Shown here piece after piece: positions 1,428 to 17,788 of a stretch of DNA of 64,000 nt. Numbering within the stretch: the first letter of the stretch is position 1; each line of letters begins with the position of its first letter. The notes under the pieces were generated by a model. That model saw nothing but the letters and a program-made list of their open reading frames with translations, ran no database searches and was not told the origin of the DNA. Location: NCBI GenBank assembly GCA_965203485.1, contig OZ241892.1, positions 1,024,001-1,088,000 of the forward strand, written 5' to 3'. The translations under genes were made by a program, and so were the position numbers. The stretch comes from Longimicrobiales bacterium. Its GTDB lineage: Bacteria > Gemmatimonadota > Gemmatimonadetes > Longimicrobiales > Gaopeijiaceae.

Positions 1428-1984
1428 CGAGCGTGTCGACGGGCGCTCCCCTTGCGTGGGCTCGCCGGTCCGTGGACGCCGTGCGGATCAGGGCCCCGGC
1501 TTTGCGGGCGGTCGGCGTTGCGATCCTCTTGGGCGGCCTTTCGTGGCGACCTTGGCCGTGGCTGGCTCGGCGCTTTGGGGCTGGACGATGCTCTGGTCCT
1601 ACGTGGAGCAGGCCGCGGCCCGTCGGGGTCGCGCGGCCGGCGTCCCCGGTCCCCTCGTCTCTCGCCCGCGAGACGGAGTTCCCGGCCGGGTCGCGCGGCC
1701 CCGCCGGGGGCTCCGCTCGACGGGGCTTTCGGCGGCCCTTCCGGAGCCGCCGCCGCCCGAACGGCGGCCACCGGCGGCGCCGCGGAAGTCGAATCTCGCA
1801 AAAACGCTTGTTCAGCAACGTGAATTGGCGTTTTTCGCCCCCGTGGCGAGGCGTTCTCCGTGCCCCGCAATTTGCCAATTGCGGATCGATTGCTCAACTT
1901 GCTTGGTCCGTGACGGAGAGGTGCGGATCGAGAGTGAAGCGCCGGGGGCGGCCCGCAAGGGACCCGTCGGCAGTCGCGGGAAAG
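1247..1984 (+). repeat. ~740 bp direct duplication, copy 1 (copy 2 at 6031-6771)
   Basis: Near-identical sequence from GGTTGTGGACGGGAAGG to CAGTCGCGGGAAAG at both positions. Copy 2 starts exactly at the IS3 end. Confidence 0.95.
1872..1900 (+). promoter_or_regulatory. sigma70-like promoter TTGCCA-N17-CAACTT (duplicate of 6659-6687)
   Basis: 17-bp spacer. Homologous to TTGCCA-N17-TATAGT at 12921-12949. The same CAACTT -10 occurs upstream of rplU. Confidence 0.5.
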
Positions 1985-2437: not shown

Positions 2438-2750
2438 GGCTCTTCGCCTGATGTGGTGGGGAAGGACAGGGGACGGGGACGGAACGGGGATGGCACGGGG
2501 CACGGCGGGTCAGTGCCGGGCGAGGCACAGACAGAGGTCGAGGCCGCCGAGGTGGAAGAGAATGGCCGCGGCGAAGCGGTCCTGGTTGGGAACCCACGAC
2601 TCCGGGCCTGATCGCTTGGATGCGGCTGTTGGCGCCCTCGGCCGGGCCGTTGGTGGCGTTCAGCACGACGGCGTTGACGATGCCCGCAGGTGTGTCCGGA
2701 CCATCGCCGCCGCCTCCTCGACCGGCCCGAGTCCGAAGGCCGACGCCCAT
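2438..2750 (-). mobile_element. ISL3-family remnant (3' end of transposase plus terminal IR)
   Basis: IR GGCTCTTCGCCTGATGTGGTGGG at 2438. The minus strand encodes GIVNAVVLNATNGPAEGANSRIQAI...DRFAAAILFHLGGLDL across a frameshift, the typical ISL3 transposase C-terminus. Confidence 0.8.
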
Positions 2751-2816
2751 TGCAACCCCGTTACTCCTCGCTGGTCGAGACACTGTTCTTTTCATTGCGT
2801 TTTATGAGGTCTGAGA

Positions 2817-4727: not shown

Positions 4728-4886
4728 TCCGATGAGCACGAGCCAAGGAACTGAAACGGTGGAGTTGACCCGGTATGGTGGACGGGCAAGGATCTTGGGT
4801 TCAGGTAGTGCGATGTGAAACATGACTTTGGGAAGGACGGAGGCGCAAGGGCGCCGAACGGCCTCGTGTCGAGGGGGTCGGTGCAC

Positions 4887-5660
4887 CTACGCGACCGCAC
4901 GCTTGCGCTCGAAGCCGGCGGGGATTCGCAGTCGAGCGCCGAGAGTCGGCGCCGCGAGTTGTAGAAGCCTTCGATGAAGGCGAAGACGGCGCGCCGGGCT
5001 TCGGCCGGACTTGTTGAACTGGCAACGGTCGAGCAACTCGCATTCCAACGTGGCGAAGAAGCTCTCGCACATCGCGTTGTCGTAGGCGTCGCCCACCGAG
5101 CCCGTCGAGCGACGCACGCCGGGCTTCCTGCACCGCTCGCCGAACGCCGAGGACGTGTACTGCGACCCCTGATCCGAATGATGGATCACGGTCTCTGGAC
5201 AGCGGTTCTCGACGGCCATGGCGAGCGCGCGCTCGACGAGTTCGCCGCGCAGGTGCGTCTCCATGGCCCAGCCGACGACGCGGCGGCTCCAGGCGTCGAC
5301 GACGACGGCCAGGTAGAGCCATCCGGCCCCGGCCGACACGTGCGTGATGTCGGCGACCCAGAGCTGGTCGGGGCCTTCGGCGCTGAAGTCGCGCTCGACC
5401 AAGTCCGGAGCCGGGCGCGCGTCGGCGTCGCGCACCGTCAGCGCCACCTTGCGGCGCCTGCGGCTCGCGCCCTCGATGCCCTCCTCGCGCATGAGGCGGG
5501 CGACGCGCTTCGAACCGACGCGCTCGCCCCAGGCCGCGAGATCGGCGTGGATGCGCGGCCGACTCGCTTCCCAGCTACGGCGCACCGAGACGCGCAACGC
5601 GTCGTCGCGCAACGCGCTCGCACATCGCGCGCACGGGAAACACGGCCCGGTGCGCTTTCA
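4887..5660 (-). pseudogene. IS3 OrfB DDE transposase, frameshifted/deleted
   Basis: WVADITHV, HHSDQGSQYTS and DNAMCESFF motifs are present. Homology breaks near the N-terminus and after ELLDRCQF. Confidence 0.8.
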
Positions 5661-5972
5661 CGAACTCGAACCCTCTCCGGGAATCGAGCCGCTCTCCCGA
5701 GCGAACCAGGCCGCGGCTTTTTTTAGGATGTCGCGCTCGAGGCGCAACTGCTTGTTCTCCCGCTTCAGGCGGCGCAACTCGTCCCGCTCGCGCGTCGTCG
5801 TCCCGTCGTCGCGACGGCCCTCGTCGAGATCGGCCTGCTCGACCCAGTTGCGGATCGTCGGCGCCGACGGCTCGAACTCACGCGCCAGCGCCTCCGGCGA
5901 CCGGCCCGAACGCGCCAGATCCACCATTCGCCGCCGGTACTCCAGCGGGTACTGCTTGCGTTTCTTCGGCAT
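5658..5972 (-). CDS. IS3 OrfA (HTH)
   Basis: MPKKRKQYPLEYRRRMVDLARSG...LKRENKQLRLERDILKKAAAWF. Confidence 0.85.
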   Translation of the reverse strand: MPKKRKQYPLEYRRRMVDLARSGRSPEALAREFEPSAPTIRNWVEQADLDEGRRDDGTTTRERDELRRLKRENKQLRLERDILKKAAAWFARESGSIPGEGSSS

Positions 5973-6030
5973 CGTGGACTCCTCCTCGTCCCGAAAGATT
6001 GAACGTGTCCACCATGCCGGGGCAACTCCA

Positions 6031-6771
6031 GGTTGTGGACGGGAAGGAACGCCGCGTGTTTGTGGGGGACGAGACGCACATCTTCGTGCGCCCGGTTCGG
6101 CCCGCCTCGGGCGTGCCCTGCGACCCCGGCGGCCTGGCGGCGTTCGTGGAGTTCGGCGATCTGGACGTGCCGGCCGTGGTCGCGCGCAGGTTGCCGGCCG
6201 AAGTGCGGTAGCGAGCGTGTCGACGGGCGCTCCCCTTGCGTGGGCTCGCCGGTCCGTGGACGCCGCGCGGATCAGGGCCCCGGCTTTGCGGGCGGTCGGC
6301 GTTGCGATCCTCTTGGGCGGCCTTTCGTGGCGACCTTGGCCGTGGCTGGCTCGGCGCTTTGGGGCTGGACGATGCTCTGGTCCTACGTGGAGCAGGCCGC
6401 GGCCCGTCGGGGTCGCGCGGCCGGCGTCTCCGGTCCCCTCGTCTCTCGCCCGCGAGACGGAGTTCCCGGCCGGGTCGCGCGGCCCAGCCGGGGGCTCCGC
6501 TCGACGGGGCTTCGGCGGCCCTTCCGGAGCCGCCGCCGCCCGAACGGCGGCCACCGGCGGCGCCGCGGAAGTCACGCGAATCTCGCAAAAACGCTTGTTC
6601 AGCAACGTGAATTGGCGTTTTTCGCCCCCGTGGCGAGGCGTTCTCCGTGCGCCGCAATTTGCCAATTGCGGATCGATTGCTCAACTTGCTTGGTCCGTGA
6701 CGGAGAGGTGCGGATCGAGAGTGAAGCGCCGGGGGCGGCCCGCAAGGGACCCGTCGGCAGTCGCGGGAAAG
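6031..6771 (+). repeat. ~740 bp direct duplication, copy 2 (propeller 3' end, spacer, RNA promoter)
   Basis: Matches 1247-1984. Confidence 0.95.
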
Positions 6772-7164
6772 CCGGAAGCCGGACAGGCTTCGCGCACAAG
6801 GGGAGGGGAGTCCCGTCAGGGACGACCGGCCCTGGACGGCGAGTCTTCCGGAAGTCGGCAGCGCCGGGGAGGCCGGGCGTCGCGTTGCGAGACGCAGGCG
6901 GTGCGGTTCCACGGCGAGCGCGGCATCCCGGTTTCGGCGGGAGCCGCGACGGTTGCAAGGTCGCTGGACGCAACCGGAGTCCCCGGGAACGGGGGACGGC
7001 CCGAGCCGCGGAGAGCGCCGGAGACGGCGAAGGAAGCGGGGAGGGAGAAGAGCACGGAGGACCGTGCCGCTGCACACGGCGGCGCCGAAACGGAGCCCTC
7101 CCGCTCGCCAGCGAGATTGAGCCCCCGGCCGGGTGGTGTGCCTCCCGCCGGGGGCTCTTTTTTT
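6693..7164 (+). ncRNA. Diverged second copy of the putative large structured RNA
   Basis: Colinear with 12955-13421. Same hairpins (CCC-GCAA-GGG, GCGTT-GCGA-GACGC, CCCCG-GGAA-CGGGG, CGCCG-GAGA-CGGCG, GCACGG-AGGA-CCGTGC), promoter at 6659-6687 and terminator at 7119-7164. Confidence 0.55.
7119..7164 (+). terminator. Intrinsic terminator
   Basis: GAGCCCCCGGC...GCCGGGGGCTC stem followed by T7. Confidence 0.85.
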
Positions 7165-7395
7165 GCGTGCGTTGCCCGTCTGGTCGCCGCGCGTTGTCCG
7201 TCCGCCGGCGGGTTACATTAAACGGCTTGGCTCGAGCCGGTCCTTGGAACCGAACGCGGGGCGGTTCCGTAGTGGAGCGTCCGAAAGCGGCGGGCCGCAC
7301 GTCCCCTTCAACCCGGTCTTCCCCGTGCGGGTTCCCAAACGACCGGCAACACTCGGAGCGCCGCCCTCCTCCTGGGACGGCGGCGAGCGCAACCC

Positions 7396-7647
7396 ATGAC
7401 CGAACCAAAGGAATCCGCCGAGGCCGAGGCCGGCCCGGACTCCCAGACCAGACGACGATTCGACCCGAACGACATCTCTCCGGAGTTCGTTCACGACAAC
7501 TACGGCCTTGAAGAGGCGCTTTGGTTCCTCGCCGGTAGCCCCGGCGGCGACGGGCGCGCCGCGGCGTGGTTTCTCGCCTACGTTGCGGCGTGGCTGGGCG
7601 TGGGTGCGGCCGGCATCCGCGCCGTAGCCGAGCGCCGGGCCACGTAG
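7396..7647 (+). pseudogene. Chimeric ORF: first ~37 codons of an rpsA paralog fused to an unrelated hydrophobic fragment
   Basis: RFDPNDISPEFVHDNYG matches S1 N-terminus RFDPDDISPEFVHDTYG (13639). The upstream leader is also homologous. Confidence 0.75.
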
Positions 7648-7675
7648 GTGCTCCTGCCGTCGCCCGAAAGCGGAT

Positions 7676-7704
7676 TTGACACGCAATGACCGATTGATTA
7701 CCTT
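7676..7704 (+). promoter_or_regulatory. Strong sigma70-like promoter TTGACA-N17-TACCTT
   Basis: Consensus -35, 17-bp spacer, TAnnnT -10. Points toward the peptide/propeller cassette at 8101. Confidence 0.6.
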
Positions 7705-7719
7705 GCCGTAAGATATACA

Positions 7720-8066
7720 GGCTCTTCCCCTGTTTCGGTGGGCGTCGTAGGATGGACAGGAGTGGCGGCGTGACTCTGGGAGCGAGGAGAGCGGATGGAG
7801 ATGCGGGAGTGGGTGGAGCGGCTGATGGGTCTGGGGCCGGAGTGGCGGATCGAGCGGGTGGACGAGGATTCGGAGCGGCAGGACGCGCGGGTGGCGCTGG
7901 CGCGCGAGGCGGGTTCGGCGTTGCGGTGTCCGGAGTGCGGGCGGGCGTGTCCGGGTTGCGGCGGGAGTGGCGGGGGCTGGACGCATGGGGATACAAGACG
8001 TTCGTGGTGTACGACGTGCCTCGGGTGGAATGTCCCGAGCACGGGGTGGTGACGACGCGGGTGCCG
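7720..8066 (+). mobile_element. ISL3-family remnant (left IR plus transposase N-terminal zinc finger)
   Basis: IR GGCTCTTCCCCTGTTTCGGTGGGCG. Encodes LRCPECGRACPG / REWRGLDAWGYKTFVVYDVPRVECPEHGVVTTRVP (frameshifted). Confidence 0.85.
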
Positions 8067-8100
8067 TCTCTCATCTCTCCTCGACAGGGAACTCCCGCCC

Positions 8101-8577
8101 ATGAGTGACAGATACCGACTCTCTCAGTTTCTGTTTGCCGGATTGCTTTCGGCGGCTTTCCAGGCTGGCGTTGCCCCGGCGGCAACTGGAGCCCTTCAAT
8201 CCCCCTCTTCGTTCTTCGTAGGCGCGACGGAAGCGTATGGTGACGTAGGACAAGTCGGTGGTGCGGACGATTGGATGGCGGCCACAAAGGACTTCGTCGC
8301 CGGCGAGCAGCGCGCCCGCACCGAAGACGTTGCGCCCCCGCAAGAGTGTGGAGCGCCGTCCATCCGTTCCGATGCCGCCTACTGCCCCGAATGGGCCAGT
8401 AAGAGCAGGATCACGCCCAGTAGCGGCGCTCCAGGCGAGATTGACGGAGTCGAAATCACGGCGTGCAGGCTCAGAGGCCAGAAAGTGGTTTACATCGAAC
8501 ACCTCTGGTTCGATACCTTTGCTGTCTGGGAATGCGACTACGGCCCATGTGGAACCCGCTCTCACATTTCGCACTGA
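8101..8577 (+). CDS. Small secreted Cys-rich protein (158 aa)
   Basis: Signal-like N-terminus (MSDRYRLSQFLFAGLLSAAFQAGVAPA), 5 Cys, C-terminal CDYGPC motif. Paralog of 1-270. The propeller ATG follows 1 nt after the stop. Confidence 0.8.
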   Translation: MSDRYRLSQFLFAGLLSAAFQAGVAPAATGALQSPSSFFVGATEAYGDVGQVGGADDWMAATKDFVAGEQRARTEDVAPPQECGAPSIRSDAAYCPEWASKSRITPSSGAPGEIDGVEITACRLRGQKVVYIEHLWFDTFAVWECDYGPCGTRSHISH

Positions 8578-8578
8578 C

Positions 8579-9625
8579 ATGCGCATTTGGAGTGGCGTTG
8601 CTGTTGCGTTGGCCACTGGCGTGCCGGATGGATCGACGCAACAGATTCTGGAAGTGGACATGGATGCCGGCCGGGAGCTCGTCGGCGGGATCGAGTACCT
8701 GTTCGACTCCAGGACTGCGGTAGTGGACTATGGTCGGCGGCTGGTGATGGTCTCGGAGGCTGCCGATCCATTGGCCGTGACGGCCTACTCGCTGGACGAC
8801 GGTTCGGTGCAAGGCATCTTCGGAGGCGGCCAGCTGGGCGACGGGCCCGGCGAACTCACGCACTTGGAGGCAGTGGCCGTTGGATCAGACGGCGTCTTCG
8901 TGGCCGGAAGAGGCAGGGTGCTCCACTGGAGTTGGTCGGGCGTCCTTCTCCATCGATGGAGGCCGACCGCACCGGGAACGAACGCTCTATGCGCATTGAA
9001 CGGCCGTCCCGCCGTTCCGTTGCAGGACAAGGGGGTGGTGTTCCGTGGCGACGACGGCGAGAGCGTTGCGTTGGGCGGAGAAGCCCGATCCGAATTGGAC
9101 TGGTCCGCGGCCTCTAGGCGCGATGACCTTCTCGATATCTTTACCGCCTACGGTCAAGCCAAGGTGGCATGTGCTGATTCGGCGGCATATGTGCTGGCCG
9201 GCATGAACCATGTGCTCACGGAGTACAAGACGGGAGCGGAGCCGCGCTTGGTCGCGATGCCCGCAGAGTTGGTGGAAGCGGCACGCAAGAGAATGGAAGA
9301 ATCCAGCCAGAACGCCTTTTATCCTGGGTACGAGACCCTGTTCCTGGCCGACGACGGTCGGCTTGTCGTCACGACGTTGGCGTACGGGCTGGCGGGAGCG
9401 GTCGTGGACCGGAAGACGGGCTGTTACGCACTGTTGAAGAACAAGCCCAATCCGCCCGCATGGAGCTACGTCGGGATGTTCGCCGACAGCCTCGTGACGC
9501 TGGAGGGCAGCCGACAACCGACGACGATGGTTTTGGACGGAAAGGAACGTCGCGTGTTTGTATCGGACGAGACGCACATCTTCGTGCGCCCGGTTCGGCC
9601 CGCATCGGGCCAGCCCTGTACGTAG
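8579..9625 (+). CDS. Secreted beta-propeller protein (GDGPGE motif), cassette copy 2
   Basis: MRIWSGVAVALATG...GQLGDGPGEL...RPASGQPCT*. Paralog of 270-1427. Confidence 0.8.
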   Translation: MRIWSGVAVALATGVPDGSTQQILEVDMDAGRELVGGIEYLFDSRTAVVDYGRRLVMVSEAADPLAVTAYSLDDGSVQGIFGGGQLGDGPGELTHLEAVAVGSDGVFVAGRGRVLHWSWSGVLLHRWRPTAPGTNALCALNGRPAVPLQDKGVVFRGDDGESVALGGEARSELDWSAASRRDDLLDIFTAYGQAKVACADSAAYVLAGMNHVLTEYKTGAEPRLVAMPAELVEAARKRMEESSQNAFYPGYETLFLADDGRLVVTTLAYGLAGAVVDRKTGCYALLKNKPNPPAWSYVGMFADSLVTLEGSRQPTTMVLDGKERRVFVSDETHIFVRPVRPASGQPCT

Positions 9626-9724
9626 CGGGACGCTCTTCAACGCGGCGCACCGTTGCGTTGTGAGACTGTCTGGAGGGAGCAAGGTTGCGAAACGTTATGG
9701 AACTCGACGAGTTGCACATGCCAA

Positions 9725-10385
9725 CCGTTCCGTCTGGGAAAGCGACTACGACCCATGTGGAACTCGCCCTCACATTTCGCACTGACATGCGCATTTGGAG
9801 TGGCGTTGCTGTTGCGTTGGCCACTGGCGTGCCGGAGGGAGCGACGCAACAGATTCTGGCAGTGGACATGGATGCCGGGCGAGAGGTCGGCCGCACCGGG
9901 AACGAAGGCTCTTTGCGCATTGAACGGCCGTCTCGCCGTCCCGTTGCAGGAGAATGGGGTGGTGTTCCGTGGCGACGCCGGCGAGAGCGTTGCATTGAGC
10001 GGAGAAGCCCGATCCGAATTGGACTGGTCCGTGGCCTCTAGGCGCTGTGACCTTCTCGATATCTCTATCGTCTACGGTCAAGCCAAGGTGGCATGTGCTG
10101 ATTCGACGGCATATGTGTTGGCCGGCACGGACCACGTGCTCACGGAGTACAAGACGGGAGCGGAGCCGCGCTTGGTCGCGATGCCCGCAGAGTTGGTGGA
10201 AGCCGCGCGCAAGAGAATGGAACAACCCAGCGGGAATGCCTTTTATCCTGGGTACGAGGCCCTTCCTGGCCGACGACGGTCGGCTCGTCATCTTGTACGT
10301 TGGCGTACGGATTGGCCGGAGCGGTCATGGACCGGACCATGGGCTGTTACGCGCTGGACAAGCCCAATTCCGCGCCCGTATGGAG
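9725..10385 (+). pseudogene. Decayed third peptide/propeller cassette
   Basis: Peptide tail VWESDYDPCGTRPHISH* ends at 9785. The propeller starts at ATG 9787 with a large internal deletion near 9885 and later frameshifts. Confidence 0.85.
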
Positions 10386-10561
10386 CCACGGCGCGCGCGT
10401 CCCATTCGGCCATGTACGCGTCCCGGTGGGCGTTGCATCGTTTTGGTAGACAGCGACCGACGCGGTTCCTCTCTGCGATCGGGAGCGACCCGAGCCCGTC
10501 CGTGCGGGGACGCCGGGTGACGATTACGCTGGGCGGAAGGTAGCCCGCTGACACCGGAGGA

Positions 10562-10978
10562 GTGCCGATGAACTTCGAGAATTGGCTTGGGACGCTGACC
10601 ACCGTCGCGATCATGTGCGGCGCGATGCTTGCCTTGGGGCGGTGGCTCCGGACGCAGACGGCGGATCAGATCGCCGTCCTCAAGGTGTCGATGGACCAGC
10701 AGTTTGCCGTGGTGGACCAGCGCTTCGCTGCCGTGGACCAGCGCTTCATTGCCGTGGACCAGCGCTTCGCCTCCATCAAGGAATCCATGGACCGGATGTC
10801 GCGGGAGAACAAGGAGGAGCACGCGGACATCCGGCGGAGCATCCAAGAGGCCACTCGGCAAGTGCTGGGGGTCATGGACCGGCGTTTCGAGGACACTGGC
10901 AAGCGGATGGACGAAATGAGCAAGCGCATCGACGACCTGCGCTCCCACGTCGATGCCGCCGGAGGGAGGGCGGCTTGA
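10562..10978 (+). CDS. Small TM-anchored coiled-coil protein with VDQRFxA heptad repeats
   Basis: GGAGG RBS, N-terminal TM helix, 21-bp tandem repeat GTGGACCAGCGCTTC at ~10690-10770. Confidence 0.75.
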   Translation: MPMNFENWLGTLTTVAIMCGAMLALGRWLRTQTADQIAVLKVSMDQQFAVVDQRFAAVDQRFIAVDQRFASIKESMDRMSRENKEEHADIRRSIQEATRQVLGVMDRRFEDTGKRMDEMSKRIDDLRSHVDAAGGRAA

Positions 10979-11029
10979 GCGCGTCGCCCACGCCGGGCAA
11001 CTCCCCCGGCCGGACGCCGGGACCGCACT

Positions 11030-11247
11030 GACAACTCCGGGCGCGCCTGCACTCCGGCCCCGCAACCCGAACGCGCCTCGGTGCCAGCGCCACCCGCGCT
11101 TCCTGGCGCTCCGAATCCTCGTCCACCCGCGTGATCCGTCACTCCGGCCGTAGCCCCATCATCCGCTCCACCCACTCCCGCATCTCCAAGAGTCACGCCG
11201 TCCCCCCAGTCCGTTCTACGGCGCCCACCGAAACAGGGGTAAGAGCC
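11030..11247 (-). mobile_element. ISL3-family remnant (left IR plus 5' fragment), inverted relative to 7720
   Basis: The reverse complement starts GGCTCTTACCCCTGTTTCGGTGGGCG and aligns with 7720-7950. Confidence 0.85.
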
Positions 11248-11259
11248 GAAGGGCAGGTC

Positions 11260-11610
11260 CTACGGCGCCACGCCGAACAGCACCAGCGGGACCGCCGGCG
11301 TGCTCCTCCCCTGCCGGATCAGGTTGTAGAGCTCCCCTTCGTAGTACCCCGGTCCGGAGGACATCTCCGCCTGGAGTTCCTTCATCGGCAGAATCTCGAC
11401 GCCCACGTCGATCTTGTCGCCGACGAAAAACGCCATGTGCTTGACGAAGATGTCGAACGCCACAAATGCATATTTGCCGAACTGCACTTCGACAGCCACT
11501 CGTTGCTTGACGTAGTCGGTCTGATTGTACGAATAGATCGGTAGTTCGAAGCGATGGACCATCATCCATTCCAGGCCGTTCAGATGGGAGTATCGCTCAA
11601 CAATGCGCAC
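11260..11610 (-). pseudogene. BglII/BstYI-family restriction endonuclease, internally deleted
   Basis: YSHLNGLE N-terminus joined to SYNQTDYVKQRVAVEVQFGKY...EMSSGPGYYEGE. Only 116 aa, shorter than the ~200 aa expected for this family. Confidence 0.75.
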
Positions 11611-11612
11611 GG

Positions 11613-12490
11613 CTAATGGCCCCCTCCGGCCAAGGAGGGATCGTATATCGGTTTGTGCATGGGGCGGGTGCGCAACACGCCGGCGTCCAGGTTACGAACG
11701 CGCTGACGGGCGATCTCGACGTACTCGGCGACCACGTCGCAGCCGAAGGCGGCGCGTCCGTGCTTCCGAGCAGCCACCAACGACGACCCAACGCCCATGT
11801 AGGGGTCAAGGACGGCGTTGCCCTGCTCGGTCATGGACAAGACCAGCCGCTCCACGAGTTCGACGGGAAACTGACACGGATGCATCGTCTTCTCGACGTG
11901 GTTGGCCTTTACGTTCGGGATGTCCGAGACGTCCGAGGGATTCTTTCCCAACGGGTTTCCCGACCGCTTGCCCCTGTTCGGCCCCTTGAAGTACTTCTTG
12001 CCCGGATACTTAGAGGGGATCCGAACGGGATCAACGTCGAAGTAGTAATCGTCCGACGTCGTCAACCACAATATCGTCTCGTATCGCCCGGAAAACCGCT
12101 TTGTGCAGTGCAGTCCATGGCCGAAATGCCAGACAATGCGATTGCGCAGTCGCAACCCATGGGACTTGAACACGTCGTACAGCACAATGTCCAACGGAAC
12201 ACCTCGCGGCCGCGCACGTGGTTGCCCACCTGCCAGCAAAGCGATCCCCGCGAATCAAGAACTCGGACGCATTCGGCGATTGTCGCCGCCTGTTCTTCCA
12301 AGTACCGTTCGAGGCTTGTGCGCGTCTCGTATGATTTTCCGATGTTGTAGGGAGGAGAAGTGACGACTAGATGCATCGAGTCGCTGGGCAACGTTGCGAG
12401 AAAGTCCAAGTTGTCGGCGCATTCGATTCTCACGGCTAGGTCGGGGTTGGGGCCGTTCGCGATGTCGGCGCCGAGCAAGTATTGGGTCAA
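11613..12490 (-). pseudogene. N4/N6 DNA methyltransferase (beta class), frameshifted near 12196
   Basis: TSPPYN motif IV in one frame, HPCQFP and LDPYMGVGS in the next. Split at GTGTTCCGTTG (one C short). TTG start with a GGAGAG RBS. Confidence 0.8.
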
Positions 12491-12920
12491 TCGTGTCTCT
12501 CCGGTTGGAGCGTCTCGAAAACATCGGAAGGAATGCGCGAACGGTACCAAACGGCCAGGGGCGGGTCAAGGCGGCCGGTCGAATGGAGCGGCGAGTCGCC
12601 AAGACGGGCCGGTCTGCGTGCCGGGCGTGCGCGCGGGGGAGGGCAACGCCGGTCCACCACGAGGCGAGCCGCGAAGGGCGCCGTGGGCGGCGATCGTCAA
12701 CGAGCGCGAGGCCAGGCGGGCGCCGTCGTCGGCCAAACGGGAAACCGAGCCCGTGACGCGAGGAGGGCGTGGCAGGCGTTGCGTGGCGGCTGCCGGGACG
12801 CGGCGGGCTCGCGGCCGCCGGCCCGTCGCCTGCCGAATCGCGGGGATGGGGCGAGGCGTCCCTTCATCCAGCGAGCGAGTTCGCGCGGTGGCCCTCGCGC
12901 GGCTGCCCGTCGCCCTGGAT

Positions 12921-12949
12921 TTGCCATCTGCGAATCGATTCGTTATAGT
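12921..12949 (+). promoter_or_regulatory. sigma70 promoter TTGCCA-N17-TATAGT driving the putative ncRNA
   Basis: Near-consensus hexamers with a 17-bp spacer, in an AT-rich patch. Confidence 0.75.
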
Positions 12950-12954
12950 TCCTA

Positions 12955-13421
12955 GCCCGGCGACCGAGGGCGCGGATCGAGAGTGACGCGCCGGGGGCGG
13001 CCCGCGAGGGAAGCCTCGGCAGTCGCCGGACCACGGGAGCCGGAGGGCTTCAGGGAAGGGGGAGGGCGGTCCGAGAGGAACGACCGGCCCCGGAAGGGAG
13101 TCCTTCGGAACTCGGACGCGCCGAGGAGGCCGCGAGCAGCGTTGCGAGACGCGGGGAGCGGGTTCCACGGCGAGCGCGGCGCCCCGATTCGGCGGGAGCC
13201 GCGACGGTTGCAAGGTCGCTGGACGCAACCGGAGTCCCCGGGAACGGGGGCGGCCCGGACCGCGGAGAACGCCGGAGACGGCGGAGGAGGCGGGACGGGA
13301 GAAGAGCACGGAGGACCGTGCCGTCGCACACGGCGGCGCCGAAACGGAACCCTCCCGCTCGCCAGCGAGACGGAGCCCCCGGCCGGGCGGTGTGCCTCCC
13401 GCCGGGGGCTCTTCTTTTTTT
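12955..13421 (+). ncRNA. Putative ~465-nt multi-hairpin structured RNA (unassigned family)
   Basis: Bounded by promoter and terminator, with many GNRA/UUCG-capped stems. Conserved in a diverged paralog that has indels, so no conserved ORF. Lacks RNase P (GAGGAAAGUCC) and tmRNA (T-loop/CCA) signatures. Confidence 0.65.
13373..13421 (+). terminator. Intrinsic terminator
   Basis: GAGCCCCCGGC/GCCGGGGGCTC stem followed by TTCTTTTTTT. Confidence 0.85.
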
Positions 13422-13439
13422 GCGCCTTGTTCGCGCCGT

Positions 13440-13638
13440 CGGGTTACATTTGACGGCTTGCTCGTTGCCGGTCCCTTGGAACCGAAGGCGGGTCGGTTCC
13501 GTAAGTGTCCGAAGGCGCTTGGCCGCACATCCCCCCCCCCCCCCCCCCCTCAACCCGGTCTCCCCCGCGCGGGAATCCAACGGACCGGCGAGAAACACCC
13601 GGAGCGCCGCCCTCCCCGGAAGGCGGCGAGCGCAACCC
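13440..13638 (+). promoter_or_regulatory. rpsA promoter/structured 5' leader containing a C19 tract
   Basis: TACATT -10-like element at 13445-13450. Hairpins GGAACCG/CGGTTCC, CCGGTC/GACCGG and CGCCGCC/GGCGGCG are also found in the paralog at 7210-7395. Confidence 0.55.
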
Positions 13639-15828
13639 ATGACCGAGACAAGGGGTCCCGCTGGGGCCGGCGCGCGCCGGTCCCGGCCCGCACCGCGATT
13701 CGACCCGGACGACATCTCTCCGGAGTTCGTCCACGACACCTACGGCGAGGAAGTCCTCGACATCTCGAGCGACGCCTTCGAGGCGATGCTCGCCGAGCAC
13801 CAGACCGCGCGGGGCGACATCCGCGAAGGGGAGATCGTCAATGCCCGGGTTCTCCGGGTGACCGACGCGACGGTGATCCTCGAGTTCGGCTTCAAGAGCG
13901 AGGGCGCGGTCTCCATCGACGAGTTCAAGGACTCGGACGGCGTGGAGCCGGGCCAGGAAGTCGAAGTTCTGCTGGAGAGCCTGGAAGACGACGACGGCGT
14001 GGTCGTCCTTTCCAAGAAGAAGGCCGACTTCCTGCGCGTCTGGGAGCTGATCCGCGACGCCTACGAGAACGACCGGCCGGTCAGCGGTCTCCTCACCCGC
14101 AAGATCAAGGGCGGCGTGACGGTGGACATCATGGGGGTGGACGCCTTCCTTCCCGGTTCGCAGATCGCCCTTCGGCGGGTGCCCAACATCGAGGACCGCA
14201 TCGGGGAGACCTACGACTTCAAGATCATCAAGCTCAACAAGCGCCGCCGCAACATCGTCGTCTCGCGCCGGGTCATCCTGGAGCAGGAGCGCAAGGCGAA
14301 GCGCTCGACGCTGGTCAAGGAGCTGCTGAAGGGCCAGGTCCGGGAAGGGGTCGTCAAGAACATCACCGACTTCGGCGCCTTCGTGGATCTGGGCGGCCTG
14401 GACGGCCTGCTTCACATCACCGACATGTCGTGGGGCCGCGTGGGCCACCCGTCCGAAGTGGTGGACATCGGTGCGACCCTGGACGTCAAGGTGCTGGACG
14501 TCGACTGGAACCGCGAGCGCATCTCGTTGGGGCTCAAGCAGCTCCTCCCGTATCCGTGGAACGACATCGCCGACCGCTACCCGGTGGGCGCGCGCGTGCG
14601 GGGCAAGGTCGTCTCGATCACGAACTACGGCGCGTTCGTGGAGTTGCAGAGGGGCGTCGAAGGGCTCGTGCACATTTCCGAGATGTCGTGGACGAGGAAC
14701 GTGCGCCATCCCTCCAAGCTGGTGTCGGTGGGCGACGAGATCGAAGCGGTGGTCCTGCGCGTGGACCAGAAGGAAGAGAAGATCTCGCTGGGCATGAAGC
14801 AGACGGAAGAGGACCCGTGGCTCGCCTTGCCGCAGAAGCGCCCGCCGGGCACGCGCCTGTCGGGGACGGTCCGCAACCTCACGACGTACGGCGCGTTCGT
14901 CGAGATCGAGCCGGGGATCGACGGCTTGGTCCACGTGTCCGACATGAGCTGGACGAAGCACGTGGAGCACCCGTCGGAAGTGGTCCGCAAGGGTAGCCAG
15001 ATCGAAGTGATGGTCCTCGAGGTGGACTCGGACAAGAAGCGGGTGTCGCTCGGCGTCAAGCAGCTCGCCGACGATCCGTGGCCCGATCTGGTGGTGCGGT
15101 TCTCGGCCGGGGTGCAGCTGGACGCGACCGTGGTTCGAGTGCGCGACAAGGGCGTGCTCGTCAACTTGGGCGACGACGTGGAGGGCTTCGTGCCGGCCGC
15201 TCGCGCGGGCGTCGACTCGGGCGTGCTCGGCGAGCACTTCCGGGCGGGCGAAACCGTGGCCGTGCGGGTCGTGACGGCCGACGCCGGAGAACGCCGGATC
15301 GACCTTGAAGTCCTCGAGGCCCCGGAGCGGCGCAAGGCCGGTCCCGCTGGGGACGCCGCGGGAGACGACGAGGCGGCGGAGGAGGCCGGGACCGGGAAGA
15401 CGGCGTCCGAGCGCAAGGACGGGGAACCGGAAGAAGCCGTTGCGGGCGGAGAAGGCCGTGAGGGCGACGCGACCGCTCCCGTTCCCGAGGATTCGGAGCC
15501 GGAAGGAGCGGCCGCGGACGGAAAGGGCCGTGAAGACGGCAAGACCGAGTCGGCTCCTGAGGATTCGGAGCCGGAGTCCGAGACCGACGTTGCGCCCGCG
15601 CCCCTGGCCGACGAGCCGGAGTCCGAGGCCGAAGCTGCGGCGGTCCCGGAGGTCGGCGAGCCCGGGAGGCCCGAGACGGACGCCGCGGCCGATCCCCATC
15701 CGCCTGCTCCCGAGGATGCCGAGCCCGGCGGTGGGACCGCCGAAGCCGCCGAGAACTCCCCCGAGGCCGACGACGGCTCCGGTCGGCAGGGAGAGGCCGA
15801 CGCCCCCGCCGGCGAGCGCGGCGGCTAG
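13639..15828 (+). CDS. rpsA: 30S ribosomal protein S1 with long acidic C-terminal tail
   Basis: Repeated S1 domains (FGAFVDLGGLDGLLHITDMSW, YGAFVELQRGVEGLVHISEMSW). Confidence 0.97.
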   Translation: MTETRGPAGAGARRSRPAPRFDPDDISPEFVHDTYGEEVLDISSDAFEAMLAEHQTARGDIREGEIVNARVLRVTDATVILEFGFKSEGAVSIDEFKDSDGVEPGQEVEVLLESLEDDDGVVVLSKKKADFLRVWELIRDAYENDRPVSGLLTRKIKGGVTVDIMGVDAFLPGSQIALRRVPNIEDRIGETYDFKIIKLNKRRRNIVVSRRVILEQERKAKRSTLVKELLKGQVREGVVKNITDFGAFVDLGGLDGLLHITDMSWGRVGHPSEVVDIGATLDVKVLDVDWNRERISLGLKQLLPYPWNDIADRYPVGARVRGKVVSITNYGAFVELQRGVEGLVHISEMSWTRNVRHPSKLVSVGDEIEAVVLRVDQKEEKISLGMKQTEEDPWLALPQKRPPGTRLSGTVRNLTTYGAFVEIEPGIDGLVHVSDMSWTKHVEHPSEVVRKGSQIEVMVLEVDSDKKRVSLGVKQLADDPWPDLVVRFSAGVQLDATVVRVRDKGVLVNLGDDVEGFVPAARAGVDSGVLGEHFRAGETVAVRVVTADAGERRIDLEVLEAPERRKAGPAGDAAGDDEAAEEAGTGKTASERKDGEPEEAVAGGEGREGDATAPVPEDSEPEGAAADGKGREDGKTESAPEDSEPESETDVAPAPLADEPESEAEAAAVPEVGEPGRPETDAAADPHPPAPEDAEPGGGTAEAAENSPEADDGSGRQGEADAPAGERGG

Positions 15829-15838
15829 AGGGGCCGCG

Positions 15839-17788
15839 ATGGGCGGACCGCGCCGCCGGCGCCCGTGGCCGGTCATCGGCGCCGCCGCCGCGACCGACGC
15901 GACCGGCTTCGCCCTCCCGCGCGCGTCGGCCGGGCGTCGGGTTGCGACGGTTCCGCGCCCGTTCAAAGGGGTTCTTGCGGCGGCGCTGTGGGCGGCCTGC
16001 ATCCCGGCGGGCCCAGAGGACGCCTCGGCCCCTTTTCCGATCCCCAGCAGCTATCCGCCGATCGAGTCCGGCGGCTATTCGCCTGCCGACCACGCGAGCG
16101 CGGACCGCCTCCTCGTCGCGGCCCGAGAGGCTCTCGTGGCGCGGCAGTACGCGGCGGCGCTCGCGGCCGCCGTGCAGGTCGAGGACCGTCACGCCACCGT
16201 TCCCGGATCCTCGGAGGCCCTCTGGATCGTCGCCTTCGCGGCCCGCGGCGAGAGCCGCCACGCCGAAGCCGCGGAGACGGCCGGCGCCTTGGCCGACCTG
16301 CTGGGCGAAGACCACCCCGCGTTCCCCGAGGTGCAGGACTTCCGCGCCGGGGCCCTGTTCGACGCGGGCGCCTTCCTGGCGGCGGCCGAGGCGACGCTCC
16401 AGTTGCCCGAACGGGCGTACACCGAGGCCTCGGCCGCCCGCTTGGAGGCGGCGGTGGGCCGTCTGGGCCGCGACGATCTGAGACGCCTGGCCGCCGCCGC
16501 CCCGGACGGCGTCCCCGGCGAGCGCTTCGCCCCGGTGCTGGCCGAGCTGGCGCTCGCGACCGCCTACGCCTACGACGCGGAGGCGGCGCGCGCGTACGCG
16601 GAGCAGGCGCGCCGGGCGGGAGCGTCGGGCAGGGCGGCCCGCATCGCGGCGGCCGTGCTGGACGGCGACGTGTCGGCGCTCGGGGTGGCCGCGCCGCTGA
16701 TCGGTGTTGTGTTGCCGATCACCGGCTCGCCCGCGAACCGGGCGTACGCGGAATCGTTCCTGGAGGGCGTCGAGTTGGCGTCCGCGGCGGCGCGCCGCTC
16801 GGGCGTGCGCGTGGACGTTGCGGTCGAGGACAACCGCGGCACTGCGCGGGGCAGCGCGCGCAGCGTGCGGACGCTGGCGACGAAGGACGCCGTGGCGATC
16901 CTGGGCCCGCTCCGCGACGAGAACGTCTCCGAGGCCGCTCGCGCCAAGCCGGGCCGGGTTCCGCTGTTCTCGCCGACGGCCCAGCGCGTTTCCGCCGCGG
17001 ACGGCGTCTACAGCCTGGGCGCGGCGAGCCCGCTGGCCGCCCGGACGCTCGCTCGCTCGCTGGCCGGGCTCGGACACGCGACGGCGGTCGTGCTGCACGG
17101 GTCCGGCCACGGCGAGGTGCTGGAGGCGCGAGCGTTCGCGGACGCCTTCGCGGAGGCCGGAGGCGTAGTGGAGCGGCACGTCGAGTACCCGAGCGGCGCG
17201 ACGACGTTCCTCGAGCCGCTGGCCGAAGTGGAGCCGCTGGCGCCGGAGCTGCTGGTGGTGCTTTCGTCCCCAACGGACCTGGAGCTGCTCGCGCCGCAGA
17301 TGTCGTTCATGGGGCTGGACACGCTCGGCATCCAAGTCGCGGGCACGTCGGCGTGGACCTCTCCCGAGGTGACGAGTTCGGTGGCCCAACGCCACACGGA
17401 CCGCGTGATCGCCGTGAGTTCCACGCCGCCGGCCGAGCCCGGTGGTTCGAGCGAGCCCGCCGCCGCCTTCCGCGCCGCCTACGAGGATCGCTTCCGCAAG
17501 ACGCTCCAAAGCGGCGTGCCCGCCGTCGCCTTCGACCTGTTCCGGATGGCGCTCGCGGCGCACGGCGAAGGCCGGACGAGACCCGGCGGGGCGGCTGTCG
17601 GCGTCGAGAGCATGAGGCGCTTCCGGGGCGTGACCGGCACGTTCTCGGTCGTGGACGGAAGGCTCGAGCGCGAAGCGTTTCCCGTCCGCATCTTCCAGGG
17701 CGAGTTCCTTGCGGTCGACGCGGAGCTCCCCGAGGACGAGCGGCGCAGAACCCCTCCGCCCCGAACCCGGGTGCGCGGCGAGGCGTGA
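15839..17788 (+). CDS. LppC/LpoA-like lipoprotein with periplasmic-binding-protein domain (start uncertain)
   Basis: Lipobox-like LWAAC, helical TPR-like region, IGVVLPITG...[15 protein letters not shown]. Confidence 0.7.

What the first reader, a model, noticed from the sequence alone, without database searches (positions are those of the whole stretch)
12921..13421. Unassigned ~465-nt highly structured non-coding RNA with its own promoter and terminator, upstream of rpsA
Seen: TTGCCA-N17-TATAGT promoter, then a dense run of stems: CCC-GCGA-GGG, TCC-GAGA-GGA, C-TTCG-G, GCGTT-GCGA-GACGC, CGCGGC/GCCGCG, GGTTGC/GCAACC, CCCCG-GGAA-CGGGG, CGCCG-GAGA-CGGCG and GCACGG-AGGA-CCGTGC. A long-range GCGGGA/TCCCGC pairing and a strong terminator follow. 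The paralog at 6693-7164 keeps most stems, keeps a GNRA loop while changing it (GCAA vs GCGA), shows a compensatory swap (CCG-TGA-CGG 6695-6703 vs CGG-CGA-CCG 12958-12966) and has G-U-tolerant changes. Its indels destroy any shared reading frame. It lacks the signatures I know for RNase P, tmRNA, SRP and group II introns, and it is too long for 6S. Inference: a standalone large ncRNA in the size and style of OLE/MISL/ROOL-type RNAs, possibly a new lineage-specific class at a conserved ribosomal locus.
Basis: partly seen in the sequence, partly recalled or inferred. Interest (0 to 1): 0.85.

Follow-up and report, generated by a model that had tools for sequence, protein, structure and literature searches.

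The report
New large structured RNA of Gemmatimonadota
This is a real, free-standing gene for a large, intricately folded non-coding RNA that belongs to a previously undescribed RNA family found only in Gemmatimonadota bacteria; what it does is still unknown.

Summary
Window 12921-13421 (+) carries a sigma-70-like promoter (TTGCCA-N17-TATAGT), a ~466-nt GC-rich structured region and a strong intrinsic terminator. A second full copy lies at ~6694-7164, 85% identical.

It is not a curiosity of one genus. Covariance models built from it find full-length matches in 80 of 151 genomes of the same order and in a second order of the class. All 11 confirmed hits in named public records are Gemmatimonadota MAGs.

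The conserved ~250-nt 3' core shows strong covariation. Two tertiary pairings, both with compensatory changes, lock the fold: the P3 loop pairs with the 3' tail, and a hairpin loop pairs with the terminator loop.

Rfam 15 gives no hit. RNase P, tmRNA and a likely SRP RNA (below Rfam's cut-off) lie elsewhere in the genome. The rpsA neighbourhood is specific to this genus; elsewhere the commonest setting is lipB -> RNA -> <- rnhA, so it is a stand-alone trans-acting RNA and not an rpsA leader.

Function is unknown and no expression data were available. The duplication looks like replacement of the RNA-rpsA 5' segment by a foreign allele carried on a ~6-kb island.

The parts
12921..12949 (+). Promoter of copy B: -35 TTGCCA (12921-12926), 17-nt spacer, -10 TATAGT (12944-12949). 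Predicted start about 12956.
   Evidence: only promoter-like site in 6400-13800, 10 of 12 matches. Relatives have CTTGAC-N17-nAnAnT or TTGCGn-N17-TATTAA at the matching distance. The start site is inferred, not measured.
12956..13421 (+). Predicted RNA, copy B (~466 nt).
   Evidence: Bounded by the promoter and the terminator. Fold z = -3.7.
12956..13169 (+). Variable 5' domain. It includes the hairpin CCC-GCGA-GGG (13002-13011) and genus-specific insertions.
   Evidence: Alignable only with genus g1 and g70 sequences. CC-GNRA-GG is conserved with GCGA, GCAA and GAAA loops. The lipB-group relatives have a shorter (~95 nt), different 5' domain.
13170..13372 (+). Conserved core matched by covariance models R1 and R2.
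   Evidence: 196.3 bits with R1 and 127.1 bits with R2. Covariation.
13175..13203 (+). P2 hairpin: CGCGGC (13175-13180) pairs with GCCGCG (13198-13203). The loop holds a T-loop-like GUUCGG-type motif.
   Evidence: In 70 of 78 family sequences the MFE fold of the segment before P3 is paired from near its 5' end to its 3' end; in most it is a single hairpin, with different stem sequences.
13205..13231 (+). P3 hairpin: stem 13205-13211 with 13225-13231. The loop AAGGUCGCUGGAC (13212-13224) is nearly invariant.
   Evidence: 7 of 7 pairs change on both sides; 95% of cells paired.
13236..13249 (+). P4 hairpin CCCCG-GGAA-CGGGG.
   Evidence: Helix 5: 6 of 6 pairs change on both sides; 90% paired.
13254..13299 (+). 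P5: CCC (13254-13256) with GGG (13297-13299); CCGC (13260-13263) with GCGG (13290-13293). The inner hairpin CGCCG-GAGA-CGGCG (13270-13283) is specific to this genus.
   Evidence: Helices 6 and 7: 3 of 3 and 4 of 4 pairs change on both sides; 95-97% paired. Helix 8 is present in 4 sequences only and is uninformative.
13304..13360 (+). P6: GAGC (13304-13307) with GCUC (13357-13360); GGAGG (13310-13314) with CCUCC (13351-13355); CCGU (13316-13319) with ACGG (13344-13347). Terminal hairpin 13320-13337 with loop GCACAC (13326-13331).
   Evidence: Helices 9-12: 4 of 4, 5 of 5, 4 of 4 and 6 of 7 pairs change on both sides. The hairpin stem has 6 of 6.
13362..13367 (+). 3' tail CCAGCG, which pairs with the P3 loop CGCUGG (13217-13222). 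This is pseudoknot PK1.
   Evidence: 99.3% of cells paired in 46 sequences; 3 of 6 pairs change on both sides. Examples: L089 UGCCGG:CCGGCA, L257 U:A, L259 and L092 U.G (both in the 46-sequence alignment; L263 likewise).
13373..13421 (+). Terminator hairpin (13373-13411) and U-tract (to 13421). Loop bases UGUGC (13391-13395) pair with GCACA (13326-13330). This is kissing interaction PK2.
   Evidence: 92.2% of cells paired; 5 of 5 pairs change on both sides. Variants seen: GCACG:CGUGC, GCACA:UGUGC, ACACG:CGUGU, UCACG:CGUGA, UCAAG:CUUGA.
13422..13638 (+). rpsA leader. Not part of the RNA. Holds a conserved hairpin at 13478-13500 and a 19-nt C run at 13531-13549.
   Evidence: Conserved with copy A, G001 and G002. 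G002 keeps this leader but has lost most of the RNA.
13639..15828 (+). rpsA (ribosomal protein S1, 729 aa, with an acidic C-terminal tail).
   Evidence: 5 S1 domains, E = 3e-89.
6659..7164 (+). Copy A: TTGCCA (6659-6664), N17, CAACTT (6682-6687). RNA about 6694-7164; core 6914-7118.
   Evidence: 224.1 bits with R1. 98.1% identical to the rpsA-adjacent copy of sister genome G001, versus 84.9% to copy B.
7165..7506 (+). Copy of the rpsA leader plus the first ~36 codons of rpsA (ATG at 7397), then a break. This is a stranded rpsA 5' fragment.
1870..1984 (+). Partial copy C: promoter and first ~110 nt of the RNA. It lies inside a 98.8% repeat, 1247-1984 = 6031-6771.

Best explanation
Window 12956-13421 (+) is a stand-alone gene for a stable, compactly folded non-coding RNA. 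Copy A at ~6694-7164 is a second such gene. Both belong to a family not in Rfam 15 and so far seen only in Gemmatimonadota.

Shown:
- It has its own sigma-70-type promoter and an intrinsic terminator.
- The conserved ~250-nt 3' part folds into hairpins P2-P4 and two multi-helix arms, P5 and P6.
- PK1 pairs the nearly invariant P3 loop with the tail just 3' of P6.
- PK2 is a 5-bp kissing interaction between the P6 terminal loop and the loop of the terminator hairpin, so the terminator is part of the fold.
- The 5' part varies between lineages, from ~95 to ~215 nt.

Inferred: the RNA acts in trans through its three-dimensional shape. It would bind a protein, a small ligand or another copy of itself, or catalyse a reaction. 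It is probably not essential, since closely related complete genomes lack an intact copy.
For: Promoter and terminator.

Homologs:
- R1 finds a single full-length match per genome in 38 of 150 other genomes of the family, and 2 in G000.
- R2 finds matches in 80 of 151 genomes of the order: f1 32/50, f2 5/50, f3 42/50.
- R2 finds matches in 20 of 151 genomes sampled across the phylum: f5 8/31 and f4 1/71 in other orders of the class, 0/29 in f6-f12.
- All 11 pattern hits that the model confirms in named public genomes are Gemmatimonadota MAGs. The other 69 of 80 fetched loci are not confirmed.

Structure:
- 48 of 58 model pairs change on both sides. 89.4% of cells are paired, against 39-49% when partners are slid, and 0 of 500 shuffles reach this.
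- On a structure-blind MAFFT alignment of 46 sequences, P3, the P6 hairpin, PK1 and PK2 give 94.3% paired against 22-60% slid. 21 of 24 pairs change on both sides.

Stand-alone status:
- The flanking genes differ between lineages.
- The commonest setting is E2/lipB -> RNA -> <- rnhA, carA. 18 of 56 loci carry at least one of these markers and 14 of 56 carry at least two.
- rpsA adjacency occurs only in genus g1.

Not a known RNA.

Non-essential:
- G002 (one contig, 95% complete) keeps only a ~100-nt remnant at rpsA plus a weak 31-bit divergent match.
- G007 (100% complete) and G079 (98%) have none at E <= 0.1.
Against: - No transcript evidence of any kind. No RNA run was listed, so the start, the end and even expression are inferred from sequence.
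- The alignments behind one search were fitted to the model, which favours its structure. One model helix (helix 1) proved wrong on inspection.
- Covariation cannot tell intramolecular pairing from pairing between two copies.
- The distribution is patchy and the searches used strict filters, so absences are soft.
- The 5' 215 nt of this copy have little comparative support.
- The -10 element of copy A and of G001 (CAACTT / TAACTT) is poor, so copy A may be weakly expressed or use another promoter.
- Nothing points to a specific partner or activity.
Confidence: 0.8

Rival explanations
1. It is a long 5' leader or attenuator of rpsA. The structured region would sense S1 or translation status, and its terminator would control read-through into rpsA.
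For: - In G000 and G001 it lies ~215 nt upstream of rpsA on the same strand.
- The terminator loop takes part in a tertiary contact, as in some riboswitch expression platforms.
- From recall, not a call: S1 is known to bind pseudoknotted RNAs and to autoregulate its own mRNA.
Against: - Of 56 loci from other genomes, only the two from genus g1 (G001 and the G002 remnant) have S1-domain genes next to the RNA; none from another genus does.
- nhmmer with the RNA-plus-leader profile finds nothing upstream of rpsA in the 27 other genomes whose rpsA loci were fetched.
- The downstream gene is usually convergent (rnhA, chorismate mutase, DUF1028).
- G002 has lost most of the RNA but keeps the proximal rpsA leader.
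- Copy A sits in front of a truncated rpsA yet is intact.
Confidence: 0.04
2. It is the functional stand-in for 6S RNA, like Ms1 of mycobacteria. It would be an abundant RNA that binds RNA polymerase and tunes transcription in stationary phase.
For: - The Rfam 6S model finds nothing in G000 at E <= 1.
- It finds only one sub-threshold hit (34 bits, in unpublished G037) in 41 genomes of the order.
- The RNA is usually single-copy, has a near-consensus promoter in many genera and looks dispensable, as 6S is.
Against: - The fold is a string of hairpins with two tertiary pairings. It is not the long irregular duplex with a central open bubble that defines 6S and Ms1.
- RF00013 also misses 9 of the 14 control genomes, so its silence says little.
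- The distribution within genera is patchy.
Confidence: 0.08
3. It is a self-assembling or catalytic RNA. 'PK1' and/or 'PK2' would form between molecules, giving dimers or larger RNA-only particles as reported for OLE, ROOL and GOLLD. Alternatively the locked core is a ribozyme.
For: - Loop-loop pairings with covariation fit pairing in cis or in trans equally well.
- The core has many invariant junction nucleotides.
- Family f3 has tandem gene copies: 29 of 42 positive genomes have 2-5 matches, some 395-1600 nt apart.
- The abstract of PMC12286853 (seen in the listing) reports homo-oligomers for GOLLD, ROOL and OLE.
Against: - No experimental data.
- At 310-470 nt it is smaller than those RNAs.
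- The two partners of each pairing are close enough in the secondary structure for an intramolecular contact.
- No cleavage-site signature was recognised.
Confidence: 0.12
4. It is not a functional RNA gene. It would be a repeated or mobile DNA element, an integration site carried along with genomic islands, or a mis-read coding region.
For: - Two and a half copies in this window border a low-GC island with an IS3 transposase and a restriction-modification system.
- Frame 12949-15828 is free of stop codons through the RNA into rpsA.
Against: - One syntenic copy per genome across many genera.
- The substitution pattern is that of paired RNA.
- The paralogs differ by 1-, 2- and 3-nt indels.
- The open frame crosses a terminator and a 19-nt C run, and rpsA homology starts only at 13639.
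- 0 of 80 pattern loci from viral contigs are confirmed by the model.
Confidence: 0.02

Closest known systems
Orphan large 'ornate' bacterial ncRNAs (OLE, ROOL, GOLLD, raiA motif RNA)
   Same: - A stand-alone gene hundreds of nucleotides long, with many covarying helices.
- Highly conserved junction and loop nucleotides.
- Long-range loop contacts.
- A restricted phylogenetic range and no obvious function from sequence.
   Different: - No sequence or structure match to any Rfam 15 model, in the window or in 20 diverse family members. That those four classes are among the 4227 Rfam models is from recall.
- A different phylum.
- Smaller than OLE, ROOL and GOLLD (sizes from recall and from abstracts listed).
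- No conserved protein-gene neighbour like the OLE-associated proteins.
- No phage association found.
6S RNA / Ms1 RNA (RNA-polymerase-binding RNAs)
   Same: - Usually one chromosomal copy.
- Its own strong promoter and terminator.
- Dispensable.
- A canonical 6S RNA is not detectable in this order.
   Different: The architecture is a chain of hairpins locked by two tertiary pairings. It is not an extended duplex with a central bubble. There is no Rfam 6S match.
RNase P RNA and tmRNA (housekeeping RNAs of 350-400 nt with pseudoknots)
   Same: Similar size, GNRA loops, pseudoknots and a usual count of one copy per genome.
   Different: Both are present elsewhere in this genome: RNase P at C1:3538541-3538930 (256.5 bits) and tmRNA at C1:1797355-1797716 (156.5 bits). 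ARAGORN finds no tmRNA or tRNA-like gene in window 1-16000. The new RNA is not universal even within genera.
Multi-copy protein-sponge RNAs (CsrB/RsmX-Z, CrcZ)
   Same: - Stand-alone transcripts of several hundred nucleotides made of many hairpins.
- Tandem paralogs in some genomes (family f3).
   Different: - No repeated short binding motif displayed in loops; the conserved loops pair with each other.
- No CsrA gene in G000.
Ribosomal-protein leaders and riboswitch-type cis regulators with a terminator platform
   Same: In this genus it lies upstream of rpsA and ends in a terminator whose loop joins the fold.
   Different: No conserved downstream gene; usually convergent with the next gene.

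Membership tests
Any Rfam 15 family (4227 models; from recall these include OLE, ROOL, GOLLD, HEARO, raiA, 6S, SRP, RNase P, tmRNA, riboswitches and r-protein leaders) | A covariance-model score at or above the family's gathering score. | tested here: not met
   0 matches at gathering score in the whole window. At E <= 10 in 6000-14500 there are only terminator-like matches of 16-21 bits. In 20 diverse family members at E <= 5 there are 3 unrelated sub-threshold matches and none recurs.
RNase P RNA (RF00010) | It is the genome's RNase P RNA. | tested here: not met
   The genome's RNase P RNA is at G000:C1:3538541-3538930, 256.5 bits.
tmRNA (RF00023) | tRNA-like ends and a tag reading frame; it is the genome's tmRNA. 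| tested here: not met
   tmRNA is at C1:1797355-1797716, 156.5 bits. ARAGORN finds none in window 1-16000.
6S RNA (RF00013) | A model match and an extended duplex with a central bubble. | tested here: not met
   No match at E <= 1 in G000. The covariation-supported fold is multi-hairpin with pseudoknots. Functional analogy is not excluded.
SRP RNA (RF00169) | It is the genome's 4.5S/SRP RNA. | tested here: not met
   The best SRP candidate is elsewhere, at C1:1369998-1370090, 35.1 bits, below the cut-off of 40. Nothing in the window.
Ribosomal protein S1 (rpsA) leader | It sits in the rpsA 5' UTR across species that have it. | tested here: not met
   Adjacent to rpsA only in G000 and G001, with a remnant in G002. 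It is absent from the rpsA upstream regions of 27 other genomes. Other family members lie at unrelated loci.
Riboswitch / cis-acting attenuator | A same-strand downstream gene, or a coherent gene set, under its control. | tested here: not met
   The downstream gene is usually on the opposite strand (rnhA, CM_2, DUF1028) and varies between lineages.
Bacterial Y RNA (Rsr/Ro60 partner) | A Ro60 (TROVE) protein encoded in the genome. | tested here: not met
   No TROVE domain in G000. One family member lies upstream of rtcB (L081); this occurs only once.
CsrA/RsmA sponge RNA | A CsrA protein in the genome and repeated GGA loops. | tested here: not met
   No CsrA in G000. The conserved loops are engaged in PK1 and PK2.
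New family proposed here (Gemmatimonadota structured RNA) | P3 hairpin with loop RRGGUCGCUGG; 3' tail CCAGCG that pairs with it; P6 hairpin loop (G/A/U)CAC(G/A) complementary to the terminator loop; its own promoter and terminator. | tested here: met
   Copy B has all of these at 13212-13224, 13362-13367, 13326-13331 and 13391-13395. Copy A likewise.

The most novel reading that the evidence does not exclude
A new class of large structured RNA, restricted to one bacterial class, whose double-locked core is a functional machine rather than a regulator. Two forms of this reading remain open. In one, it is an RNA-only assembly: the covarying loop-loop and loop-tail pairings could form between copies, as in the ROOL, GOLLD and OLE particles. 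In the other, it is a ribozyme or the RNA subunit of an unknown ribonucleoprotein. It might also fill the gap left by the undetectable 6S RNA in this order. The evidence excludes none of these.
Probability: 0.25. Interest if true: 0.9.

Novelty: categorically new. Interest (0 to 1): 0.8.

Why it matters
Large RNAs with many covarying helices and tertiary locks are rare. The known ones are ribozymes, RNP cores or, as recently shown, self-assembling particles. Here is a well-supported new class in a widespread soil and water phylum for which my searches of the open-access library held here found no lineage-specific RNA described (subscription journals and supplements were not searched).

The class comes with a ready alignment, two testable pseudoknots, natural loss variants and cultivable relatives that carry it. 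That makes its function directly testable. It would also improve annotation of Gemmatimonadota genomes: a 300-470-nt gene is currently left blank or covered by spurious ORFs.

Tried and rejected
- **Expression:** The look-up of sequencing runs listed 4 DNA-type holders from one study and no RNA holder. Expression is therefore untested and read laying was not used.
- **Earlier findings of this scan:** nothing similar on record.
- **CsrA-sponge idea:** dropped, because G000 has no CsrA.
- **Y-RNA idea:** prompted by one rtcB neighbour. Dropped, because G000 has no TROVE protein.
- **Phage or viral carriage:** 0 of 80 fetched pattern loci from viral contigs are confirmed by the model.
- **Model 'helix 1' (5' CGCGGC with 3' GCCAGCG), taken from RNAalifold:** rejected.
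  - Its 5' strand belongs to the local P2 hairpin; the MFE of the pre-P3 segment is paired end to end in 70 of 78 sequences.
  - Its 3' strand pairs with the P3 loop; the L089 double change fits PK1 only.
- **A closing helix GCGAG:CUCGC for the core:** fits genera g1 and g70 only and clashes with covarying helix 9. Rejected by inspection.
- **A third contact, GGUC (P3 loop) with GACC (P5b loop):** the G-to-A change in L078, L088 and L089 is not compensated. Not supported.
- **Hammerhead-like reading of CUGA...GA around P5b:** the core does not fit the consensus as I recall it. Rejected.
- **ykkC-like GGUCCGAGAG in the 5' domain of copy B:** not conserved in copy A, and Rfam is silent. Chance.
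- **An integrase in the island:** searched with Pfam and NCBIfam. Only an IS3 transposase was found.
- **Literature:** six searches found no paper describing a Gemmatimonadota-specific structured RNA. In PMC6704655 I read three passages and they were irrelevant.
- **Not done:** Complex prediction, structure prediction and protein homology searches were not needed.
Full report
**1. What is in the window.**

The finding's coordinates are accurate.
- A sigma-70-like promoter lies at 12921-12949: TTGCCA, 17 nt, TATAGT. It is the only such site the consensus scan reports between 6400 and 13800.
- A long GC-rich hairpin (13373-13411) is followed by a U-tract to 13421.
- The ~466 nt between them fold better than all 100 dinucleotide shuffles on the plus strand (z = -3.7). 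The minus strand gives z = -2.4.
- rpsA starts at 13639 with ATG and encodes 729 aa with five S1 domains.
- One reading frame is free of stops from 12949 into rpsA. However, it crosses the terminator and a 19-nt C run, and similarity to other S1 proteins starts only at 13639.

**2. The paralogs, and why there are two.**

- 6657-7506 matches 12919-13746 at 79%.
- This stretch covers the promoter, the RNA, the rpsA leader and the first ~36 codons of rpsA. Copy A is therefore followed by a stranded rpsA 5' fragment.
- In the RNA part, A and B are 84.9% identical and differ by indels of 1-3 nt. A is 98.1% identical to the rpsA-adjacent copy of the sister genome G001, whereas B is only 84.5% identical to it.
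- A third, partial copy (1870-1984) lies inside a 98.8% repeat, 1247-1984 = 6031-6771.
- Between and around the copies lie low-GC DNA, an IS3 transposase, a BglII-type restriction-modification pair and paralogous genes with no family match.

My reading is an inference. The genus-typical allele A was displaced when a ~6-kb foreign segment (7507-13746) entered the 5' end of rpsA. That segment carried its own RNA gene, rpsA leader and first codons, which together make up allele B. No recombinase was found.

**3. It is a family, not a local oddity.**

BLAST found only G001 at full length, plus a collinear partial match in another genus (G009). I built covariance model R1 from the conserved 3' 205 nt of B, A, G001 and G009.

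| Search | Model | Result |
|---|---|---|
| Family f1, 150 other genomes | R1 | Exactly one full-length match in 38; two in G000 |
| Order, 151 genomes | R2 | Matches in 80: f1 32/50, f2 5/50, f3 42/50 |
| Phylum-wide sample, 151 genomes | R2 | Matches in 20: also f5 8/31 and f4 1/71 (same class, other orders); 0/29 in families f6-f12 |

R2 was rebuilt from the 31 aligned matches to R1.
- In f3, 29 of the 42 positive genomes have 2-5 matches, some in tandem 395-1600 nt apart.
- These searches used strict filters and rough E-values, so 'not found' is soft.
- The phylum name comes from public record titles. Of the 80 loci fetched, the model confirms 11 (41-111 bits). All 11 are labelled Gemmatimonadaceae, Gemmatimonadetes, Gemmatimonadota or Longimicrobiales. 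The other 69, from many phyla, score E > 0.08 or nothing.

Counts include the unpublished genomes G037, G056, G217 and G270. Four items rest on them:
- the closest-spaced tandem example (395 nt, G056);
- three rows of alignments A7 and A9 (L129, L118, L130);
- one of the f3 synteny examples (L130);
- the single sub-threshold 6S hit (G037).

**4. Structure.**

On the model-fitted alignment of 31 sequences:
- 48 of 58 pairs change on both sides.
- 89.4% of cells are standard pairs, against 39-49% when partners are slid by 1-3 columns.
- No shuffle out of 500 reaches the observed values.

That alignment leans towards the model. I therefore checked the key elements on a plain MAFFT alignment of 46 sequences from four families. 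These were chosen from 76 candidate stretches (out of 81 distinct sequences in hand) for having clean ends. The dropped rows include truncated ones (L093, L096) and ones with mis-set ends (L083, L177, L200, L256, L258).

| Element | Pairs changing on both sides | Cells paired |
|---|---|---|
| P3 stem | 7 of 7 | 95.0% |
| P6 hairpin stem | 6 of 6 | 90.3% |
| PK1 | 3 of 6 | 99.3% |
| PK2 | 5 of 5 | 92.2% |

Slid controls give 22-60% paired.

**PK1** joins CGCUGG in the nearly invariant P3 loop to CCAGCG just 3' of P6.
- In L089 both sides change together (UGCCGG with CCGGCA).
- L257 changes C-G to U-A.
- L259, L263 and L092 change G-C to U.G.

**PK2** joins the P6 hairpin loop to the loop of the terminator hairpin. 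The variants are:
- GCACG:CGUGC in most sequences;
- GCACA:UGUGC in genera g1 and g70;
- ACACG:CGUGU;
- UCACG:CGUGA;
- UCAAG:CUUGA in L085.

In the f5 family, two sequences (L254, L262) appear to use a different complementary pair (CAUCG:CGAUG and AUCGC:GCGAU). L257, L133 and L266 show no obvious PK2 (by eye).

One model helix was wrong. The 5' strand of 'helix 1' belongs to P2: the minimum-energy fold of the segment before P3 is paired from near its 5' end to its 3' end in 70 of 78 sequences, as a single hairpin in most, with unrelated stem sequences. Its 3' strand is the PK1 tail.

The 5' domain is variable.
- It is about 95 nt in the lipB-group genera, giving a predicted RNA of 308-342 nt.
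- It is longer in g70 and longest in g1, which has two extra insertions.
- Only CC-GNRA-GG is clearly shared between g1 and g70.

**5.

- Supported by family covariation: CGCGGC/GCCGCG (P2), GGTTGC/GCAACC (P3) and CCCCG-GGAA-CGGGG (P4).
- Supported by conservation with loop variation: CCC-GCGA-GGG.
- Present only in this genus, so untestable: TCC-GAGA-GGA, the TTCG hairpin, GCGTT-GCGA-GACGC and CGCCG-GAGA-CGGCG.
- Not supported: GCACGG-AGGA-CCGTGC and GCGGGA/TCCCGC. Those bases form GGAGG:CCUCC, CCGU:ACGG, GAGC:GCUC, CCGC:GCGG and CCC:GGG, all of which covary.

**6. Stand-alone and trans-acting.**

I scanned ORFs around 56 family loci against Pfam (29 loci, 27).
- 18 loci carry at least one of 2-oxoacid dehydrogenase E2, LipB, RNase H or CarA next to the RNA, and 14 carry at least two. 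This holds in families f1 and f3, with RNase H convergent on the RNA.
- The other loci differ: Pol X-like, RtcB, chorismate mutase, M28 peptidase, HEAT-repeat proteins and more.
- S1 is the neighbour only in genus g1.
- A profile of the RNA plus leader finds nothing upstream of rpsA in the other 27 genomes whose rpsA loci were fetched.
- In G000 itself the ancestral neighbourhood is broken up: lipB is at C1:1.141 Mb, carA at 1.146 Mb and rnhA at 1.394 Mb.
- G002, of the same genus, keeps the rpsA leader but only ~100 nt of the RNA. Its only other match is a weak 31-bit one that lacks the PK1 tail.
- G007 (100% complete, in a genus where 9 of 10 sampled genomes have the RNA) and G079 have no match at E <= 0.1.

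So the RNA is not an rpsA leader and is probably dispensable.

**7. Comparison with known RNAs.**

- No Rfam 15 family reaches threshold in the window.
- Permissive scans of the locus and of 20 diverse members give nothing recurrent.
- RNase P RNA, tmRNA and a likely SRP RNA (35.1 bits, below the Rfam cut-off of 40) are elsewhere in the genome.
- ARAGORN finds nothing in window 1-16000.
- The Rfam 6S model finds nothing in G000 and one sub-threshold hit in 41 genomes of the order. That model also misses 9 of 14 control genomes.
- Six full-text searches found no description of such an RNA. Subscription-only papers and supplements were not covered.

**8. What it most likely does.**

Shown: a conserved, promoter-to-terminator unit whose invariant loop bases are spent on two tertiary pairings, with variable neighbours.

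Inferred: a stable RNA that acts in trans through its shape. I put about 0.8 on 'real stand-alone structured RNA of a new family acting in trans'. Within that, the mode of action is open. My rough odds are:
- protein-binding RNP core or scaffold, about 0.45;
- self-assembly or catalysis, about 0.12;
- RNA-polymerase binding like 6S or Ms1, about 0.08;
- the rest unknown.

The CsrA-sponge and Y-RNA ideas were tested and dropped. No viral copies were found in a limited test.

**9. Limits.**

- No expression data.
- Transcript ends are predicted, not measured.
- Model E-values are rough.
- Related genomes are not independent.
- The taxonomic label of G000 is inferred from named homolog-bearing MAGs.
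- The 5' third of this particular copy has little comparative support.

Noticed in passing
window 6657-7506 versus 12919-13746; island 7507-12918: The RNA gene, the rpsA leader and the first ~36 rpsA codons are duplicated. The upstream copy (A) is 98% identical to the sister genome's allele; the rpsA-linked copy (B) is only ~85% identical. This looks like a foreign ~6-kb segment that replaced the 5' end of rpsA and displaced the native allele. No integrase was found.
   Followed up: partly
window 1247-1984 and 6031-6771: A 740-bp direct repeat, 98.8% identical, flanks a ~4-kb low-GC (52%) segment. That segment holds a thioredoxin-like ORF (2808-4724) and an IS3-family transposase in two frames (4890-5657 and 5661-6680, minus strand).
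   Followed up: partly
window 11263-12565 (-): A BglII-type restriction endonuclease ORF lies next to an N6/N4 DNA methyltransferase. The methyltransferase is split over two overlapping frames (11616-12254 and 12065-12565), so it is a possible frameshift or pseudogene.
   Followed up: no
window 23-1336, 8338-9618, 9883-10393: Three paralogous copies (73-79% identical) of a ~450-aa ORF with no Pfam or NCBIfam match, inside the island region.
   Followed up: partly
window 1661-1713 and 6445-6497; G001:C1:2308206-2308262: 53-nt fragments resembling the RNA's 3' end and terminator (81-83% identical) lie ~210 nt upstream of copies C and A, and upstream of G001's copy. They may be relics of an older tandem copy.
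   Followed up: no
window 13422-13638: The rpsA leader is conserved in copy A, G001 and G002. It holds a hairpin GGAACCG...CGGTTCC (13478-13500) and a C run that is 19 nt here (13531-13549) but much shorter in the other copies. This may be a slippage-prone tract or an S1-binding pyrimidine tract.
   Followed up: no
window 38589-50158: At least 29 tandem repeats of about 375-390 nt (~126 aa, with a recurring D-x-D-x-D-G-I motif). They appear to belong to one giant repeat protein on the plus strand.
   Followed up: no
loci L076, L079, L083, L086, L087, L090, L092, L094 (about 100-250 nt upstream of the RNA promoter): In the lipB-group genera two further conserved blocks precede the RNA promoter: AT(C/T)TGTTTAC(A) and GTAA...TTACGGCATAA. 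They may be a regulator binding site or a second promoter.
   Followed up: no
G000 and 40 other genomes of the order: The Rfam 6S RNA model finds no match over threshold in any of 41 genomes. There is one 34-bit hit, in unpublished G037. The order's 6S RNA, if any, is undescribed.
   Followed up: partly
window 13639-15828: The S1 protein is 729 aa. It has an N-terminal extension that differs between alleles A and B and a ~170-aa acidic, low-complexity C-terminal tail.
   Followed up: no
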